Assembly: GCA_964496095.1 (NCBI GenBank)
Contig: CAZBWU010000001.1
Span: 121,474-185,473 of the forward strand
From: an uncultured Gammaproteobacteria bacterium
GTDB lineage: Bacteria; Patescibacteriota; Patescibacteriia; Magasanikbacterales; GWA2-37-8
Direction: 5' to 3'
Length of the DNA: 64,000 bases
The position numbers were made by a program, and so were the translations under genes. Shown here in pieces: positions 9,791-64,000 of the stretch (the stretch's first letter is position 1; the number at the start of each line of letters is the position of its first letter). Under the pieces are notes generated by a model, which did not search any database, was not told the DNA's origin, and saw nothing but the letters and a program-made list of their open reading frames with translations.

Positions 9791-9884
9791 AAAAATATTT
9801 AACAATTCACCCAGTGAAATAATTCCGATAAAATCGGAATTGCCACAAAGTGGCATTTCACAGGGTAAACAAATTAAGCCATTC
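9791..9884 (+). ncRNA. Conserved structured leader RNA motif, copy 1 (three-way junction: 10-bp closing stem CCAGTGAAAT/ATTTCACAGG, hairpin AATTCCGATaaaATCGGAATT, hairpin GCCACaaaGTGGC, tail GGGTAAACAAATTAAGCC)
   Basis: Second copy at 55486-55574 shows compensatory changes (GAT/ATC to GAC/GTC; GTGGC to GTGGT); preceded by a TTTAACAAT boxA-like string. Confidence 0.6.
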
Positions 9885-13573: not shown

Positions 13574-14269
13574 ATGGGACATAAAGTACATCCGAAAATT
13601 CACAGAATACCAACTATTTATACTTGGGATTCAAAATGGTTTGCAAAGAACAAGCAGATGCCTTTGTTTTTAGAACAAGAAACCGCTATTAGAAAATTGT
13701 TAACCAAAAAATTGAAAGATTCTTTACTTGATGGTATTAGTATTGAGAGAACTCCAAAGGATCTAACAGTTTATATTCTTTCTGCAAAACCAGGTACTAT
13801 TATCGGCCGAGGCGGACAAGGTTTGGAAGGTTTATGCAGACAAATTGAAAAAGAAATTTTACAACAAAAATTAAAAGTTAAAATTAATGTTTTAGAAGTA
13901 CGCCAACCATCTTTGTCAGCTCAGATTATGGCGCAAAATGCAGCGACCGATATTGAAAAACGTTTTCCTTTCCGCAGAGTTATGAAACAATTGATTGAAA
14001 GAGTAATGACTGCTGGCGGACAGGGTGTTAAGATTTGTATGAGTGGACGCTTAAATGGCGTAGAAATTGCTAGAACTGAAAAACTAAGCGCTGGTAAAAT
14101 GTCACTTATTACTGTTCGTAGTGATGTTGACTATGCTTTGGCTGAAGCTCAAACTTTATATGGAAAAATTGGTATTAAGGTTTGGATTTATAAAGGTGAA
14201 GCATTTAGTCGTCGAGATAAATTTGCTAAAAAAGACGATGAGCCAAAGGTAGAAGGGAAAAGAAAATAA
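13574..14269 (+). CDS. rpsC: 30S ribosomal protein S3
   Basis: MGHKVHPKIHR... KH and S3-C domains; conserved CTCACTCATTTCGAATATG motif at the start. Confidence 0.96.
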   Translation: MGHKVHPKIHRIPTIYTWDSKWFAKNKQMPLFLEQETAIRKLLTKKLKDSLLDGISIERTPKDLTVYILSAKPGTIIGRGGQGLEGLCRQIEKEILQQKLKVKINVLEVRQPSLSAQIMAQNAATDIEKRFPFRRVMKQLIERVMTAGGQGVKICMSGRLNGVEIARTEKLSAGKMSLITVRSDVDYALAEAQTLYGKIGIKVWIYKGEAFSRRDKFAKKDDEPKVEGKRK

Positions 14270-19160: not shown

Positions 19161-19173
19161 TAACAGGGTAAAT

Positions 19174-20448
19174 ATGTGGGAAAAAATACAGCAAATTTGG
19201 AAGATTAAAGATATTAGAAATAAGATCTTGTTTGTGGTTGGTATGCTCGTAGTTTTTAGATTGGTTGCTCATATCCCAGTGCCGGGTGTAAATATCGCAA
19301 ACTTACGTCAATTTTTAGCAGGTAACCAAATCTTTGGTTTGTTAGATGTTTTCTCTGGTGGTACCATGAAAAACTTTTCTATTGTCATGTTAGGTGTTGG
19401 CCCTTATATCACTTCTTCTATTATTTTCCAATTACTTACGATGATTTCTCCAAAGTTGGAAGAACTTTCTAAAGAAGGGGAAGCTGGACAACAAAAAATT
19501 AACATGTACACCAGATTGCTTACTGTGCCTTTGGCCTTTTTGCAATCTTATGCCATGATCAAAGTGCTTAACCGCTCTTCTTTGCCGATCATTACAGATT
19601 TGAGCTTTTTCCGTTTGGTCACAATTATGATGACCATTACCGCCGGTACTATGTTTTTGATGTGGATTGGCGAGCTTATTTCTGAGAAGAAAATTGGTAA
19701 TGGTGTATCATTTCTCATCTTTGCGGGTATCGTTTCCGGTTTTCCAGGCGCGATTCGTAATTTTTCTATCAACTATAACTCAGCTGATTTTTATACTTTG
19801 ATTTTGTTTGGTGCTATTGCTATCCTCACTGTGGTTGGCGTGGTATTTATCAATGAAGGTCAACGCAATATCCCTGTCAGTTATGCCAAGCAAGTGCGTG
19901 GTAATAATATGTATGGTGGTAATAGTTCTCACTTGCCACTACGCGTCAACATGTCTGGCGTGATTCCAATTATCTTTGCAATTTCCTTGGTTTTGTTCCC
20001 ATCTCTAATTGCTCAGTTTTTTGTCCAAGCCCAAACTGCTTGGTTGGCTAATTTGGCTGCCGGCACAATTAGATTATTCCAGAATCAATTATTCTACGGT
20101 ATTATCTATTTCTTGTTAGTATTTGGTTTTACCTATTTCTATACCGCTATTATCTTCCATCCGCAAAAAATGGCTGAGAATTTACAAAAACAAGGCGGGT
20201 TTATTCCTGGTATTCGTCCTGGCACAGAAACAGAAAAGTATTTGGGTCAGACCATGAACAGAATCAATCTTACCGGTGCTTTATTCCTTGGTGTGATTGC
20301 TATTTTGCCACTCTTGGCTCAATATTTTATGGGTACTCAAAATTTGGCTTTAGGTGGTACAAGTTTACTAATCGTAGTATCAGTCGCTATTGAAATTTCA
20401 AAACAAATCAGCGCTCAACTTACAATGCATGCTTACGATAATGTTTAA
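19174..20448 (+). CDS. secY: Preprotein translocase SecY
   Basis: 10 TM helices; LGVGPYITSSIIFQLL signature. Confidence 0.97.
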   Translation: MWEKIQQIWKIKDIRNKILFVVGMLVVFRLVAHIPVPGVNIANLRQFLAGNQIFGLLDVFSGGTMKNFSIVMLGVGPYITSSIIFQLLTMISPKLEELSKEGEAGQQKINMYTRLLTVPLAFLQSYAMIKVLNRSSLPIITDLSFFRLVTIMMTITAGTMFLMWIGELISEKKIGNGVSFLIFAGIVSGFPGAIRNFSINYNSADFYTLILFGAIAILTVVGVVFINEGQRNIPVSYAKQVRGNNMYGGNSSHLPLRVNMSGVIPIIFAISLVLFPSLIAQFFVQAQTAWLANLAAGTIRLFQNQLFYGIIYFLLVFGFTYFYTAIIFHPQKMAENLQKQGGFIPGIRPGTETEKYLGQTMNRINLTGALFLGVIAILPLLAQYFMGTQNLALGGTSLLIVVSVAIEISKQISAQLTMHAYDNV

Positions 20449-22025: not shown

Positions 22026-22133
22026 TATCCTAAAATCTTAATGATTATTTTTCGCTTTCCTCGCCGCGAGGCTCAGGGATGGTCGCCTCGGGCGACCATA
22101 ACCCGCTTAAAAATAATCATTAAGATTAAAATA
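22026..22133. repeat. Nested-hairpin palindromic element (18-bp AT-rich outer stem TAATGATTATTTTTCGC/GCTTAAAAATAATCATTA, inner GC hairpins CCTCGCcgCGAGG and GGTCGCCtcGGGCGACC)
   Basis: Read directly; replaces the usual infA-rpmJ-rpsM-rpsK-rpoA continuation. Confidence 0.55.
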
Positions 22134-23778: not shown

Positions 23779-23878
23779 TGTATTTGTTCTGGTAAAATTT
23801 TTGTGGTAGCCAGACTTATCCCGACAAAGTCGGGATTGCCCCTGTGGGGGTGCGATGGCTACAACAAAAATTTTACCA
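23779..23878. repeat. Nested-hairpin palindromic element (outer stem TTCTGGTAAAATTTTTGTGGTAGCC/GGCTACAACAAAAATTTTACCAGAA; inner ATCCCGACaaaGTCGGGAT and CCCCtgtGGGGG)
   Basis: Read directly; lies between the MgtE-N/CBS gene and the NRAMP gene. Confidence 0.55.
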
Positions 23879-23901
23879 GAACATGGTTTGAATTTTTAAT
23901 T

Positions 23902-27400: not shown

Positions 27401-27426
27401 TTTTACACAGTTTGTTCTTTACAAAA

Positions 27427-27770
27427 GGTCAGGGCGGTCGCCGGCAAGAGTAGAAAAAGTTTTTCTTTTCTTGCTGGCGACCTCCCTGCCAATGAGTGGG
27501 AGGAGAAAGGGTGGGGCATATGCCCTCCGTTGATCCGACTGTCACTCCTCCGATTGCTGAGCAGCCGGAGGGGCCTACTCCCTCCACGTCTGCTTCTAGT
27601 CCTTCTGGCAGCGACCCCCAGAGAGAGGCTGTGTCTTCGCCTCCGCAAGCTGACAAGCTCGCGGGCGGTAACTGGGGCAAGAAGCCTAGCCTAGGTTGGT
27701 AGAGATGACCAGGCAGGCGCGAGGGCCGCCCTGACCGAGATTCGGTTGGGGCGGCCGCTTTTATTTTAAA
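27427..27770. other. GC-rich (~62%) island bounded by 11-bp inverted repeats GGTCAGGGCGG/CCGCCCTGACC, with terminal GC hairpin + T-run; contains a 60-codon Pro/Ser-rich ORF with Shine-Dalgarno
   Basis: Composition shift versus AT-rich flanks; inverted repeats at 27427-27437 and 27727-27737. Confidence 0.5.
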
Positions 27771-27851
27771 TCTGTCAGAGTATAAGTTTTTTTATATTGT
27801 TATCTTATAGTATAGTATTCCAACGTAATTTTAGAATTTGGGATTTAGTAT

Positions 27852-34830: not shown

Positions 34831-35187
34831 ATGAACCGCTTCGGTGGTCTCTCGTTCGTCACCCTCGTCACCCTCGCCATCACCGCCTGCACCGAGTCCG
34901 CCGACATCGAGTCGGCGCCGGTCATCACCGATCCGCACGGCCGCGAGGCGGCCGTCGTGGACATCAGCGAGCTGGACCTCGACATGCGGGCGATCGCGAC
35001 CGATCTGGTCGATGAGGTCAGCACGACGCCGCCGCCCAGCGGCGGCGTCATCGAGAAGGGGTGCCGCTGGCTGGAGCTCGATTTCCTCGGTTGCGCGGTG
35101 TCGGTCGGCGCCTGCTTCATCCCGAGCTCCTTCGAGCCGGGCTGGTCGGTGGCGGTGCTCGTCACCGAGCCCTACTGCGAGCCCTAG
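34831..35187 (+). CDS. Putative lipoprotein of foreign (high-GC, actinobacterial-like) codon usage inside a ~560-bp ~68% GC island
   Basis: GGAGG 7 nt upstream; lipobox LAITAC; GC3 near 90% versus ~25% in neighbours; GGGCttcGCCC hairpin after stop; overlapping ORFs in other frames are composition artefacts. Confidence 0.55.
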   Translation: MNRFGGLSFVTLVTLAITACTESADIESAPVITDPHGREAAVVDISELDLDMRAIATDLVDEVSTTPPPSGGVIEKGCRWLELDFLGCAVSVGACFIPSSFEPGWSVAVLVTEPYCEP

Positions 35188-35412
35188 CGGGCTTCGGCCC
35201 CTGGGAGGTCACCGGCGGGTGCCTCGACCGGTCCCCTGCCCGCGGACGTAGAGCCGCGGAGAGGCGCAGCCGTTCACGCGCTGCCGCCTGGTCGTTCGTT
35301 GTCGCGTAATGTTTATAAATTATTTGTAGATATTACCCGAACGATCAGGATTTTTTTAAAAAACACTGCTTAGTAATAGGCGGTGTTTTTAATATGTATG
35401 AATTAATAAATA

Positions 35413-37922: not shown

Positions 37923-37924
37923 AT

Positions 37925-38176
37925 TTTATTAGCTTACCACCGCCATGAGGCGGGGTCCCGCTGTAGCGGGATTAGGTTGTAGCTTTTTAGCATGTTAGTG
38001 ATCAATGGTTTTCGTCTGTCATCCTGAATGAAATGAAGTATCCCTGTTAGTTTCGTTCGTTGTCATTCCCAACTTGATTGGGAATCCAGGGTGCGTTCGA
38101 ATTGTCTGGATTCCCGCTTTGGCGGGAATGACATTGTGCGGACAGAGATTCTTCGCTCTGCTCAGAATGACAGTTT
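37925..38176. repeat. Cluster of hairpins and TGTCAT(T/C)CC repeats (direct at 38016 and 38061; inverted GGGAATGACA at 38124) in the gyrA upstream region
   Basis: Hairpins CCGCCatgaGGCGG, TCCCGCTgtAGCGGGA, ATTCCCaacttgatTGGGAAT, GGGAATCCAG...CTGGATTCCC. Confidence 0.55.
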
Positions 38177-47976: not shown

Positions 47977-48054
47977 TTTCTAGCATTGACAAAATGACTT
48001 AGAGTGGCTATTATACCTCTATAAGAACCGAGAAATCGGCGATTTTGCGTATTT

Positions 48055-48107
48055 ACCCTGTTAAATGTCGCTTTGCGACACCCGACCTTGTCGGGATTTA
48101 ACAGGGT
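48055..48107. repeat. Nested-hairpin palindromic element (outer ACCCTGTTAAAT/ATTTAACAGGGT; inner GTCGCtttGCGAC and CCCGACcttGTCGGG)
   Basis: Read directly; shares a CCCGAC...GTCGGG hairpin with the element at 23779. Confidence 0.55.
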
Positions 48108-48124
48108 AAACCTATTAATAAATT

Positions 48125-54897: not shown

Positions 54898-54954
54898 AAC
54901 AAACTAGGATTTTAAATTATCTATAGATTAGGTAATTTAAAATCCTAGTTTGTT
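54898..54954. repeat. Perfect 21-bp inverted repeat AACAAACTAGGATTTTAAATT / AATTTAAAATCCTAGTTTGTT with 15-nt loop
   Basis: Read directly; sits at the left edge of a GC-rich island. Confidence 0.7.
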
Positions 54955-55022
54955 CCGAACGTTCATCACCAATGCCCCTGTTGGAGGGGAAGAAAGAAAA
55001 AAGGGAGGGGGTGATATATCAA

Positions 55023-55485: not shown

Positions 55486-55574
55486 ATTAAAAATATTGAC
55501 CCAGTGAAATAATTCCGACCAAGTCGGAATTGCCACAGAGTGGTATTTCACGGGGTAAACCAATTAAGCCCTTC
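55486..55574 (+). ncRNA. Conserved structured leader RNA motif, copy 2 (upstream of rpsA)
   Basis: About 85% identical to 9791-9884 with compensatory base-pair changes in two helices. Confidence 0.6.
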
Positions 55575-56805: not shown

Positions 56806-56919
56806 TAAAGTTTAAAAAAACATAAAAATTACAAACCCTTCGTCAAAAACGAGGGGTTTGTTTATCCCTTGCCTTTTTGGTTGAAAAAAGGTAATATTTA
56901 TTAACAATTTAAAACAAAT

Positions 56920-57001
56920 ACATAATAATTTTTTAGCGTCCAAATGCCCTGCGGGCACCCCTGCGGGGGTTGGTGATGGACGCTGTAAAAAATTATTATG
57001 T
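56920..57001. repeat. Nested-hairpin element with conserved core GCGTCCAAA...GGTTGGTGATGGACGC (22-bp AT-rich outer stem, inner TGCCCtgcGGGCA and CCCCtgcGGGGG)
   Basis: Read directly; paralog at 61690-61790. Confidence 0.6.
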
Positions 57002-57032
57002 ATTCTTAAATCCTTATAAATAAAAAATCCTT

Positions 57033-61680: not shown

Positions 61681-61689
61681 CAATTAGCA

Positions 61690-61790
61690 AAAGACTAATT
61701 TTATTGCGTCCAAACAGCCACTCGCTTGGGCGAGCAGCTGCCTCTGCGGAGGTTGGTGATGGACGCTACCAAAATTAGTCTTTTTTTGTT
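61690..61790. repeat. Nested-hairpin element, second copy of the GCGTCCAAA...GGTTGGTGATGGACGC core; followed by T7 (probable terminator of the ATPase gene)
   Basis: Outer stem AAGACTAATTTTATTGCGTCC/GGACGC..AAAATTAGTCTT; inner hairpins of different sequence but same layout as 56920. Confidence 0.6.
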
Positions 61791-61812
61791 AAACTTTAGG
61801 TAAGTTTATTGT

Positions 61813-63895: not shown

Positions 63896-64000
63896 TGTGT
63901 TTTTGTCATTCCGAACCCTTTACGGGGTGAGGAATCTCTGTCCAGTTCAATCGTTGTCATCCTCGACTTGATCGGGGATCTAACGTCCAGTTGAATTGTC
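63896..64000. repeat. TGTCAT(T/C)CC palindromic repeats (two units; hairpin GATCCTCGacttgaTCGGGGATC related to 38064-38086) and direct repeat GTCCAGTTSAAT
   Basis: Read directly; truncated by window end. Confidence 0.45.

What the first reader, a model, noticed from the sequence alone, without database searches (positions are those of the whole stretch)
56920..57001. Paired intergenic elements with conserved GCGTCCAAA...GGTTGGTGATGGACGC core and structure-conserving, sequence-variable hairpins
Elements after rpsA (56920-57001) and after the PilB/GspE ATPase gene (61690-61790) share identical core strands flanking two inner hairpins. Those hairpins differ completely in sequence between the copies but keep the same stem-loop layout. 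Both are enclosed in about 20-bp AT-rich outer stems that are each self-complementary but unrelated to each other. A conserved single-stranded GGTTGGTGAT together with structure-only conservation elsewhere is the hallmark of a functional RNA or a protein-recognised DNA hairpin, not a simple terminator. Copy 2 carries a T7 tail.
Basis: seen in the sequence. Interest (0 to 1): 0.7.

Follow-up and report, generated by a model that had tools for sequence, protein, structure and literature searches.

The report
Conserved Y-shaped intergenic hairpin elements
Two intergenic sites in this small candidate-phyla-radiation (CPR) bacterial genome carry a strongly conserved, undescribed structured element: a long AT-rich hairpin capped by a GC-rich three-way junction, most likely acting in the mRNA, with its function still unknown.

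Summary
E1 (56917-57004) and E2 (61689-61784) share GCGTCCAAA and a 26-nt 3' block. That block has one compensated pair, and the outer stems (19 and 14 bp) are perfect but unrelated.

The elements are not neutral. Against a relative (L002), four-fold codon sites differ at 48.6%, but the elements differ at only 3/88 and 3/96 positions.

They belong to a small family in Magasanikbacteria-like CPR genomes. A third window copy lies at 23785-23883, and there are further copies in L002, L008, L109 and L006. All copies share one layout: site-specific stem, T-run, 6-7 bp P1, AAA, variable hairpin A, hairpin B (CCNC-UGYG-GNGG), GAU, P1', A-run. P1 covaries at 4 of 7 pairs. Every copy reads in the sense of its upstream gene.

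Several relatives lack the element, and one copy is decayed. No Rfam family matches, and the phage, plasmid, viral, genome and metagenome searches found no other copy.

Best reading (about 0.4): a cis-acting RNA module in 5'-UTR, intercistronic and 3'-UTR positions. Its junction looks like a kink-turn three-way junction, and the long stem suits termination or RNase III processing. A DNA-level hairpin is not excluded, because stem mismatches show no strand bias.

It is a new candidate motif of moderate interest.

The parts
56917..57004 (+). E1, whole element (type W), in the rpsA-ftsH intergenic region and probably the ftsH 5' leader
   Evidence: CM score 75.7 bits. 3/88 differences from L002 against 48.6% at four-fold sites.
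56917..56935 (+). E1 outer stem, 5' arm (AATACATAATAATTTTTTA). It pairs with 56986-57004.
   Evidence: 19/19 complementary. Unchanged in L002.
56936..56944 (+). E1 P1 5' strand GCGTCC plus junction AAA (proposed 3n, 2n, 1n positions)
56945..56957 (+). E1 hairpin A (TGCCC-TGC-GGGCA), the variable arm (proposed T helix)
   Evidence: The loop changes G to A in L002.
56958..56969 (+). E1 hairpin B (CCCC-UGCG-GGGG), the conserved arm (proposed C helix)
56970..56983 (+). E1 junction strand TTGGT-GAT plus P1 3' strand GGACGC
56986..57004 (+). E1 outer stem, 3' arm
56869..56897 (+). Promoter-like site TTGCCT-17 nt-TAATAT upstream of E1, which places E1 in the ftsH leader
   Evidence: Read. The -35 TTGC(C/T)T and -10 TA(A/G/T)TAT hexamers keep a 17-nt spacing in six genomes while the spacer sequence varies. 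The site is below the threshold of the consensus scan (8/12).
61689..61784 (+). E2, whole element (type W), starting 8 nt after the pilB/gspE stop codon and ending 28 nt before the recG ATG
   Evidence: CM score 87.5 bits. 3/96 differences from L002.
61689..61702 (+). E2 outer stem, 5' arm (AAAAGACTAATTTT). It pairs with 61771-61784. Homologous to the outer arms of L008 and L109 copies at the same site.
61706..61714 (+). E2 P1 5' strand GCGTCC plus AAA
61715..61740 (+). E2 hairpin A (CAGCCACTCGC-TTGG-GCGAGCAGCTG). It shares CCGCTCGCT with the orthologous L008 copy via the L002 sequence.
61741..61752 (+). E2 hairpin B (CCUC-UGCG-GAGG), with one compensated pair relative to E1
61753..61766 (+). 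E2 junction strand TTGGT-GAT plus P1 3' strand GGACGC
61771..61791 (+). E2 outer stem 3' arm plus T-tract (GTCTTTTTTTGTT), which resembles the tails of the ordinary terminators in this genome
23785..23883 (+). E4, the third family member, lying between an MgtE-N/CBS protein gene and an Nramp gene. Same layout with a different core: GTAGCCA-GA...TGC-GA-TGGCTAC, the standard tandem G.A/A.G signature.
   Evidence: CM score 60.6 bits (it was in the training set).

Best explanation
E1 and E2 are two members of a small, lineage-restricted family of structured elements that act in cis in the mRNA (sense strand). E4 is a third member in the window.

Each element has two parts:
1. A site-specific, almost perfectly paired AT-rich stem. 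It has 14-28 bp of continuous pairing and is about 21-31 pairs long counting the T-run/A-run and P1.

The cap has the sequence signature of a kink-turn-type three-way junction (k-junction). In that reading P1 is the NC helix, hairpin B is the C helix, and hairpin A is the third helix on the non-bulged strand. Such a junction would fold the two small hairpins back along the long stem into a compact knob.

Inferred role: a transcript-boundary or stability module.
- At gene ends (E2, L008a, L109a, L109b, L006b) the long stem with its T-tract terminates transcription and blocks 3' exonucleases.
- In leaders (E1, L109c, probably E4) it caps or insulates the 5' part of the mRNA.
- The long duplex with its asymmetric 2-4 nt bulge on the 3' side is the kind of substrate RNase III cuts.
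- The conserved cap is probably the docking site for a lineage-specific protein. This would explain why paralogues within one genome share core sequence.

Shown: the structure, selection, covariation, family membership, orientation and positions. Inferred: the RNA level, the k-junction fold, and the termination, processing or protein-binding roles.
For: Selection:
- Window versus L002 differ at 295/607 four-fold sites (48.6%), but at only 3/88 (E1) and 3/96 (E2) positions. P is about 1e-21 for each element.
- Both elements are local identity maxima, while two other intergenic regions are scrambled.

Structure:
- Fold z-scores range from -5.9 to -10.5 for E1, E2, E4 and L008a across both strands.
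- P1 has 7 pairs. Four have changes on both sides and none has a one-sided change. 94% of cells are paired. The covariation score is 0.307 against 0.132 in shuffles (0/500 reach it), and it collapses when the partner is slid.
- Hairpin B carries one compensated pair between E1 and E2.

Family:
- The same layout occurs in E4, L002 (two copies), L008a, L109a/b/c and L006b.
- The CM also recovers the untrained relic L006a.

Strand-specific features:
- A-U at 3n-3b in 9/9 copies.
- A at 2b in 9/9 copies.
- G1b.A1n in 7/9 copies.
- G.A/A.G in E4, and A.A at 2b.2n in the others.

Orientation and position:
- Every copy lies in the sense orientation of its upstream gene, at four independent sites.
- A conserved promoter-like site lies upstream of E1 in six genomes, so the + strand is transcribed through it.
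- E2, L008a, L109a and L109b end in T-tracts like the genome's plain terminators.
Against: - No transcript data are available.
- Across nine copies the outer and P1 stems have 251 Watson-Crick pairs, 4 G.U pairs on the + strand and 7 A.C pairs (which would be G.U on the - strand). There is no excess of + strand wobble as RNA-level selection would predict. The two substitutions in E2 hairpin A between the window and L002 are wobble-neutral only on the - strand.
- The k-junction reading is imperfect. The bulge is 5 nt in type W. Position 1n is G in the L002 copy of E1. Position 1b is A in L109c. The 2b.2n pair is the rare A.A in most copies.
- The element is dispensable. It is absent at both sites in L004, L107, L108, L110, L111 and L117, absent at the pilB-recG site in L007 (the only site its short contig covers), and decayed in L006a (fold z = -0.6).
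- E1 has no T-tract and sits after a separate rpsA terminator, so termination cannot be the shared function.
- Only 11 copies from about 5 genomes were found, so there are few independent events.
Confidence: 0.4

Rival explanations
1. DNA-level element. The palindrome is extruded as a hairpin or cruciform, or folds on single-stranded DNA during replication. A lineage-specific DNA-binding, nicking or recombination protein reads the asymmetric GC-rich cap. The RNA structure would be a by-product.
For: - The outer stems are almost purely Watson-Crick, with no strand bias among the rare mismatches (251 WC, 4 versus 7).
- Orthologues show mirrored indels in the two arms (E2 versus L109a and L008a).
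- Paralogues within one genome share their core while the outer arms stay site-specific (E1/E2, and L109a/b). Gene conversion or a shared DNA-binding partner would produce this.
- All copies lie on the strand with positive GC skew, so orientation relative to replication is confounded with orientation relative to transcription.
Against: - No transposase, recombinase or HUH nuclease gene lies next to any copy. The neighbours are conserved housekeeping genes in conserved order.
- The invariant A(A/G)A / GAU beside a covarying helix matches a known RNA tertiary motif and has no obvious DNA rationale.
- The T-tract tails and leader positions fit transcription units.
- Strong purifying selection argues against a selfish element.
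Confidence: 0.2
2. Precursor of a small stable RNA. The long outer stem is a processing stalk, like those that flank rRNAs. RNase III cuts it and releases the 35-63 nt three-way junction, which then acts in trans through its single-stranded UUGGU/GAU segment.
For: - A long, near-perfect duplex with an asymmetric bulge encloses a compact GC-rich fold.
- Core sequence is shared among paralogues.
- Conservation is extreme.
Against: - Core sequences differ between related genomes (types W, L and c, plus the E4 core in this window) and within one genome. A trans-acting RNA with a fixed target would not do this.
- Hairpin A is freely variable.
- There is no dedicated promoter or terminator.
- Several relatives lack the element.
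Confidence: 0.12
3. Regulatory leader: a riboswitch, thermosensor or attenuator that controls the downstream gene (ftsH, recG, Nramp), possibly through the upstream ORF that starts at the ATG inside GTGATGG.
For: - E1, E2, E4 and L008a end 18-29 nt before the next start codon.
- E1, E2 and E4 each contain an ATG at the GAU/P1' boundary that opens a 14-15 codon ORF. That ORF stops 2-11 nt before the downstream ATG (read).
- In E2 and in the L006a relic, UUGGU can pair with a downstream ACCAA, giving a possible alternative fold.
Against: - Type L copies have ATT instead of ATG.
- The genome shows essentially no Shine-Dalgarno sequences, so GGAGG is unlikely to be a ribosome-binding site.
- The peptide is not conserved between the window and L002.
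- L109b and L006b lie between convergent genes, with no downstream gene to regulate.
- The start codons are not sequestered.
- The junction sequence varies between lineages, unlike a ligand pocket.
- No Rfam riboswitch matches.
Confidence: 0.1
4. Selfish miniature mobile element (MITE- or REP-like) that inserts into the loops of pre-existing AT-rich terminator hairpins.
For: - The core is flanked by unrelated palindromic arms.
- The 6-bp ends GCGTCC/GGACGC are inverted repeats.
- Presence is patchy among relatives.
- Plain long AT hairpins without a cap exist in the genome, for example at 54898-54954.
Against: - Divergence is 3% where neutral sites are 48.6% diverged.
- Orthologous copies at the same site share their outer arms, which points to vertical descent.
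- There are no target-site duplications.
- Copy number is very low (3 in 64 kb).
- There are no true copies in 185,579 representative genomes other than the close relative L002, and none in the metagenome, viral, phage or plasmid searches.
- Hairpin A differs in length between copies.
Confidence: 0.05

Closest known systems
k-junction (kink-turn elaborated into a three-way junction; TPP riboswitch, DUF-3268 RNA, 23S rRNA)
   Same: - The same strand order. The bulged strand runs C helix, short loop, G-A, NC helix. The other strand runs NC helix, (G/A)-A, third helix, C helix.
- E4 has the standard tandem G.A/A.G pairs and a 3-nt loop.
- The key nucleotides stay fixed while the helices covary (PMC10573300, PMC5061560).
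   Different: - Types W and L have the rare A.A pair at 2b.2n.
- Type W has a 5-nt loop.
- One copy has G at 1n and one has A at 1b.
- The fold was not tested.
- Rfam models gave no match.
- The context here is a cap on a long AT-rich hairpin, not a riboswitch or rRNA.
Intrinsic (Rho-independent) terminators
   Same: E2, L008a, L109a, L109b and L006b have an A-tract, a long stem and a T-tract (TTTTGTT type), like the plain terminators after rpsA, ftsH and other genes of this window.
   Different: - The GC-rich part is at the apex, separated from the T-tract by 14-21 AT pairs.
- It is preceded by a T-run and followed by an A-run.
- E1, E4 and L109c have no T-tract and sit in leaders.
- A conserved asymmetric junction is not a terminator feature.
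RNase III processing signals (phage T7 R1.1-type sites, rRNA processing stalks). Comparison from general knowledge.
   Same: A duplex of two or more helical turns is interrupted by a small asymmetric internal loop on the 3' side, lies between cistrons, and has an upper stem-loop that would stay on the upstream product.
   Different: - Cleavage was not tested.
- The three-way-junction cap and its sequence conservation are not needed for RNase III.
REP / REPIN and other intergenic palindromic repeats (BIME, ERIC, Correia, RPE). Comparison from general knowledge.
   Same: They are intergenic and palindromic, have species-specific sequence, are variably present among relatives, and may affect mRNA stability and termination.
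   Different: - Very low copy number.
- The outer arms are unique to each site.
- No GTAG-type conserved end, and no RAYT gene seen.
- Strongly conserved between species rather than turning over.

Membership tests
Any Rfam 15 family | Score at or above the family's gathering threshold | tested here: not met
   The whole window at gathering threshold gave only a tRNA. E-value scans of E1, E2 and E4 gave only weak generic-hairpin hits, the best being 30.7 bits against a threshold of 49 and 29.3 against 80.
k-junction / kink-turn | Tandem sheared G.A and A.G pairs (1b.1n, 2b.2n) directly next to the NC helix | tested here: inconclusive
   Tested at sequence level only. E4 has G.A/A.G. Types W and L have G.A plus A.A (non-standard but known; PMC5061560). 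The L002 copy of E1 has G.G at 1b.1n, and L109c has A.A/A.A.
k-junction / kink-turn | Three-nucleotide bulge 5' of G1b, after the C helix | tested here: inconclusive
   The bulge is 3 nt in E4 (UGC), 2-3 nt in type L, 5 nt in type W (UUGGU) and 4 nt in L109c.
k-junction / kink-turn | [quoted passage not shown] | tested here: met
   Hairpin A sits between 1n and the 5' strand of hairpin B in E1, E2, E4, L008a and L109a/b. It is absent in L109c, which would then be a plain k-turn layout (definition from PMC10573300).
k-junction / kink-turn | Kinked three-dimensional fold with cross-strand A-minor hydrogen bonds | not testable with these tools
   This needs FRET, gel mobility, chemical probing or crystallography.
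Intrinsic terminator | Stable stem with a G+C-rich base, immediately followed by a U-tract | tested here: inconclusive
   Met loosely by E2 (GUC then U7), L109b (CGACCC then U6) and L006b. Not met by E1, E4 or L109c. The terminator scan did not call E1 or E2.
REP / REPIN (RAYT-mobilised) | Many near-identical copies of the whole palindrome, with a conserved GTAG-type end and a cognate RAYT gene | tested here: not met
   There are three copies in 64 kb with unrelated outer arms. No GTAG end is present. No transposase gene lies in the neighbourhoods.
MITE | Terminal inverted repeats shared by all copies, target-site duplication, and recent near-identical copies | tested here: not met
   The outer arms are not shared. 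No direct repeats flank the core or the whole element. The copies are old and conserved.
Integron attC site | R''/R' core sites (RYYYAAC ... GTTRRRY), a cassette array and a nearby intI gene | tested here: not met
   No such core sites are in the sequence. The flanking genes are syntenic housekeeping genes, not cassettes.
Riboswitch | A ligand-pocket sequence conserved across lineages, coupled to an expression platform upstream of a functionally coherent gene set | tested here: not met
   The junction and P1 sequences differ between related genomes. Some copies lie between convergent genes. The genes served are unrelated: ftsH, recG, radA side, Nramp.
Hammerhead and other small self-cleaving ribozymes | Conserved catalytic core (for hammerhead, CUGANGA between stems I and II and GAAA between II and III) | tested here: not met
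   At most 3 nt lie between the two hairpins in types W and L and in E4, and the core motifs are absent on both strands. Rfam ribozyme models gave no hit.
RNase III processing site | At least about 20 bp of duplex RNA, cleaved by RNase III | not testable with these tools
   The duplex length and the asymmetric bulge are present. Cleavage needs an experiment.

The most novel reading that the evidence does not exclude
The cap is a previously undescribed k-junction RNA module. A lineage-specific RNA-binding protein or nuclease would use it as an address tag on a handful of mRNAs (ftsH, pilB-recG, recG 3' end, Nramp). This would form a small post-transcriptional regulon in a reduced CPR genome that lacks Shine-Dalgarno-led initiation. 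Concerted change of the tag within each genome would track co-evolution with that protein.
Probability: 0.2. Interest if true: 0.7.

Novelty: new member of a known kind. Interest (0 to 1): 0.5.

Why it matters
CPR (Patescibacteria) bacteria are uncultured and have tiny genomes, and almost nothing is known about their RNA-level regulation. Here a short non-coding element is held nearly invariant while neighbouring synonymous sites are half saturated. It has a covarying helix and a junction that reads like a kink-turn three-way junction.

If it is an RNA module, it adds a natural k-junction outside riboswitches and rRNA. It would also give a handle on how these organisms set transcript boundaries or stability in a genome that appears not to use Shine-Dalgarno sequences.

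The pattern of shared cores and site-specific stems is a neat case of concerted evolution that asks for a partner molecule.

The family is small, lineage-restricted and dispensable in relatives, so the reach of the finding is limited.

Tried and rejected
- **Known RNA families:** four Rfam scans found nothing.
- **Exact-core searches:**
  - 185,579 representative genomes gave only the close relative L002 plus one chance coding hit.
  - The metagenome scan with a loosened pattern gave 95 hits, all chance matches inside coding regions, mostly of high-GC DNA.
  - Viral contigs gave nothing for core types W or L.
  - Phage records gave nothing. Plasmid records gave one chance 31-nt match at E = 0.7.
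- **More copies in the window:** the CM and two descriptor scans found only E1, E2 and E4. A TTGGTGAT near 54972 on the minus strand is unrelated.
- **Upstream ORF / Shine-Dalgarno idea:** rejected. Type L has ATT, the genome lacks SD sequences, and the peptide is not conserved.
- **UNCG tetraloop argument for the + strand:** weakened. Hairpin A has a triloop, and only hairpin B carries C(UGYG)G.
- **Strand from wobble pairs:** inconclusive, 4 versus 7.
- **REPIN idea (hairpin A as the inverse of hairpin B):** rejected on inspection of the sequence.
- **Recalled resemblances checked against the sequence and dropped:** tRNA-like fold, SRP Alu domain, retron, attC, parS and hammerhead.
- **Empty-site test:** the 92%-identical PilB relative (P0002) could have provided it, but its DNA was not retrievable.

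Full report
**1. Observation**

E1 and E2 are real and lie at the stated places.

E1 spans 56917-57004:
- a 19/19 perfect AT-rich outer stem
- GCGTCC, then AAA
- hairpin A (TGCCC-TGC-GGGCA)
- hairpin B (CCCC-TGCG-GGGG)
- TTGGTGAT, then GGACGC
- a 2-nt bulge and the other outer arm

E2 spans 61689-61784. It has the same order of parts, with a 14/14 outer stem, a 26-nt hairpin A and hairpin B = CCTC-TGCG-GAGG. It is followed by a T7 run.

The 16-mer GGTTGGTGATGGACGC occurs only at these two places, even allowing three mismatches (0.27 expected). Both elements fold far better than shuffles (z = -7.5 and -5.9).

Hairpin B is nearly identical in the two copies and differs by one compensated pair. 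Only hairpin A is unrelated.

**2. Organism and context**

PilB homologues place the window in the candidate phyla radiation (CPR), in Magasanikbacteria-like Patescibacteria. The gene order uvrC - rpsA - ftsH - hypothetical - pilB - recG - radA is conserved in all relatives fetched.

rpsA has its own ordinary terminator at about 56832-56863. Downstream of it lies a promoter-like site, TTGC(C/T)T-17 nt-TA(A/G/T)TAT. Six genomes keep it while the spacer sequence varies (read). E1 is therefore most likely in the ftsH 5' leader.

E2 starts 8 nt after the pilB stop. It ends in GTCTTTTTTTGTT, which is like the tails of the plain terminators of this genome. Genes of this window have essentially no Shine-Dalgarno sequences.

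**3. The elements are under selection**

The closest relative available, L002, was found by the genome scan. It is only about 83.5% identical in the flanking genes. Its four-fold degenerate sites differ from the window at 295/607 positions (48.6%).

E1 differs at only 3/88 positions and E2 at 3/96. The binomial P is about 1e-21 for each.

Both elements are local maxima of identity, at 92-98%. The ftsH-hypothetical and hypothetical-pilB spacers are scrambled.

The three E1 changes fall in the junction, in a loop, and at the innermost outer-stem pair. This rules out neutral or selfish DNA in this lineage.

**4. A family, not a pair**

- The window has a third member, E4 (23785-23883), between an MgtE-N/CBS gene and an Nramp gene.
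- Relatives carry copies at the same sites:
  - L008a and L109a at pilB-recG
  - L109c and a decayed relic, L006a, at rpsA-ftsH
  - L109b and L006b at the convergent recG-radA junction

All copies share one layout. In order: a site-specific outer stem, AATTTTT(T), P1 (6-7 bp, GC-rich), A(A/G)A, hairpin A (variable, absent in L109c), hairpin B (CCNC-UGYG-GNGG or longer), a short loop, GAU, P1', a 0-4 nt bulge, AAAAAT, and the other outer arm.

A covariance model built on ten copies was run over 248 kb of CPR DNA. It found nothing new except the untrained relic L006a (26 bits, E = 0.014). It found no further copy in the window.

The element is absent at both sites in L004, L107, L108, L110, L111 and L117. 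It is also absent at the pilB-recG site in L007, the only site that short contig covers. L004 is 91% identical to L008 yet lacks its pilB-recG copy. The element is therefore dispensable.

The exact type W core occurs nowhere else. It was not found in the representative genomes, metagenomes, viral contigs, phages or plasmids.

**5. Evolutionary pattern**

- Orthologues keep their outer arms. E2, L109a and L008a share AAAA(TA)GA(A)CTAATTTT, and the indels are mirrored in the 3' arm.
- Paralogues in one genome share the core but not the arms. E1 and E2 share type W. L109a and L109b share type L, GCGGCAAAAC...TGCGATTGCCGC.
- E2's hairpin A still resembles that of its orthologues (CCGCTCGCT), while its P1, hairpin B and junction equal those of E1.

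The core has therefore evolved in concert within genomes. Gene conversion, or co-evolution with a shared partner, could explain this.

P1 covaries. Of its 7 pairs, 4 have changes on both sides and none has a one-sided change. 94% of cells are paired. The covariation score is 0.307 against 0.132 in shuffles (0/500 reach it), and it falls to 0.12 or less when partners are slid. The alignment was fitted to the model, and the copies represent few independent lineages, so this is supportive rather than conclusive.

**6. What the junction looks like**

Beside the covarying P1, the flanking nucleotides are fixed and asymmetric: A(A/G)A on the 5' strand and GAU on the 3' strand.

Read as RNA, this gives an A-U pair, then A.A or G.A, then A.G. 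A short loop and hairpin B precede this on one strand. Hairpin A follows it on the other strand.

[quoted passage not shown] E4 has the standard G.A/A.G pairs and a 3-nt loop (CAGA ... UGC-GA-UGG). Types W and L have A.A at 2b.2n, which is rare but natural and isosteric (PMC5061560).

Deviations from the motif:
- a 5-nt loop in type W
- G at 1n in the L002 copy of E1
- A at 1b in L109c

This is a sequence-level resemblance. The fold itself could not be tested here.

**7. RNA or DNA**

For RNA on the + strand:
- the asymmetric junction motif
- the sense orientation of every copy, at four independent sites
- the promoter-like site upstream of E1
- the terminator-like tails of the copies that sit at gene ends

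Against RNA, or neutral:
- In nine copies the outer and P1 stems hold 251 Watson-Crick pairs, 4 G.U on the + strand and 7 A.C. RNA-level selection would predict a bias toward G.U, and there is none.
- E2's hairpin A is a continuous 11-bp helix only on the - strand, in both species.
- All copies lie on the strand with positive GC skew, so transcription and replication orientation are confounded.

I favour RNA, at about 0.6-0.65 in total across the RNA readings. The specific cis boundary/stability/processing model gets 0.4.

**8. Mechanism proposed**

The long stem gives a very stable duplex. Where it ends in a T-tract it should terminate transcription and protect the upstream mRNA. With its asymmetric 3' bulge it resembles RNase III processing sites. 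The k-junction cap would fold the two small hairpins back on the stem and present a compact, sequence-specific surface, probably for a protein.

Shown: structure, selection, covariation, positions. Inferred: everything about activity.

**9. Rivals**

- A DNA hairpin read by a protein (0.2).
- A processed small RNA (0.12).
- A regulatory leader or upstream ORF (0.1). Type L has ATT in place of ATG, the genome lacks SD sequences, and some copies sit between convergent genes.
- A selfish MITE- or REP-like insertion into terminator loops (0.05). The conservation contradicts this.

**10. Verdict**

This is a new, small, lineage-restricted family of structured intergenic elements with no match in Rfam. 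It is worth a targeted follow-up but is of limited breadth. Interest 0.5.

Noticed in passing
window 9810-9872 and 55500-55562: A second family of Y-shaped hairpins, about 85% alike: CCCAGTGAAAT-AATTCCGA..TCGGAATT-GCCAC.A.GTGG-ATTTCAC.GGGTAAAC. One lies upstream of the S10 ribosomal-protein operon. The other overlaps the mechanically called GTG start of rpsA at 55540, so the real rpsA start is probably further downstream. A shared leader for two ribosomal-protein units suggests a common regulator.
   Followed up: partly
window 48052-48110 (also 19163-19172): A Y-shaped hairpin upstream of uvrB: a 15-bp outer stem enclosing GTCGC-TTT-GCGAC and CCCGAC-CTT-GTCGGG. Its 3' arm ATTTAACAGGGTAAA recurs directly before the ATG at 19174 and resembles the arm of the 9810/55500 family.
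   Followed up: partly
window 22034-22127: Another long AT-rich hairpin (19/19) between the map and ruvX genes. It has a GC-rich branched cap of unrelated sequence (fold z = -8.4) and is not matched by the covariance model of the E1/E2 family.
   Followed up: partly
window, upstream of the ATGs at 13574, 44685 and 52816 (variant before 58967): The motif (CA)CTCATTTCG recurs 3 nt before start codons of unrelated genes. The genome otherwise shows almost no Shine-Dalgarno sequences upstream of about 50 genes. This may be an alternative initiation or leader signal.
   Followed up: no
window 27420-27800, 35166-35300, 37923-38176, 63900-64000: GC-rich, highly structured non-coding stretches in an AT-rich genome. 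Some carry repeats of GTCATTCC...GGAATGAC type (38062-38132, 63905). Rfam at gathering threshold found nothing there.
   Followed up: no
L006 8730-8810: At the pilB-recG site, this relative has a long AT-rich hairpin (AAAGTCCTTAAAG..AAGTCTATAAAG / CTTTATAGACTT..TAAGGACTTT) with a small AT apical hairpin in place of the GC-rich cap. The site seems to keep a hairpin even when the cap is different or missing.
   Followed up: no
L002 3358-5090: The pilB reading frame of the related MAG breaks after 397 codons, against 576 in the window. This is probably an assembly error or a frameshift in that MAG. The record is labelled 'uncultured Gammaproteobacteria', although its genes and synteny are those of this CPR lineage.
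   Followed up: no
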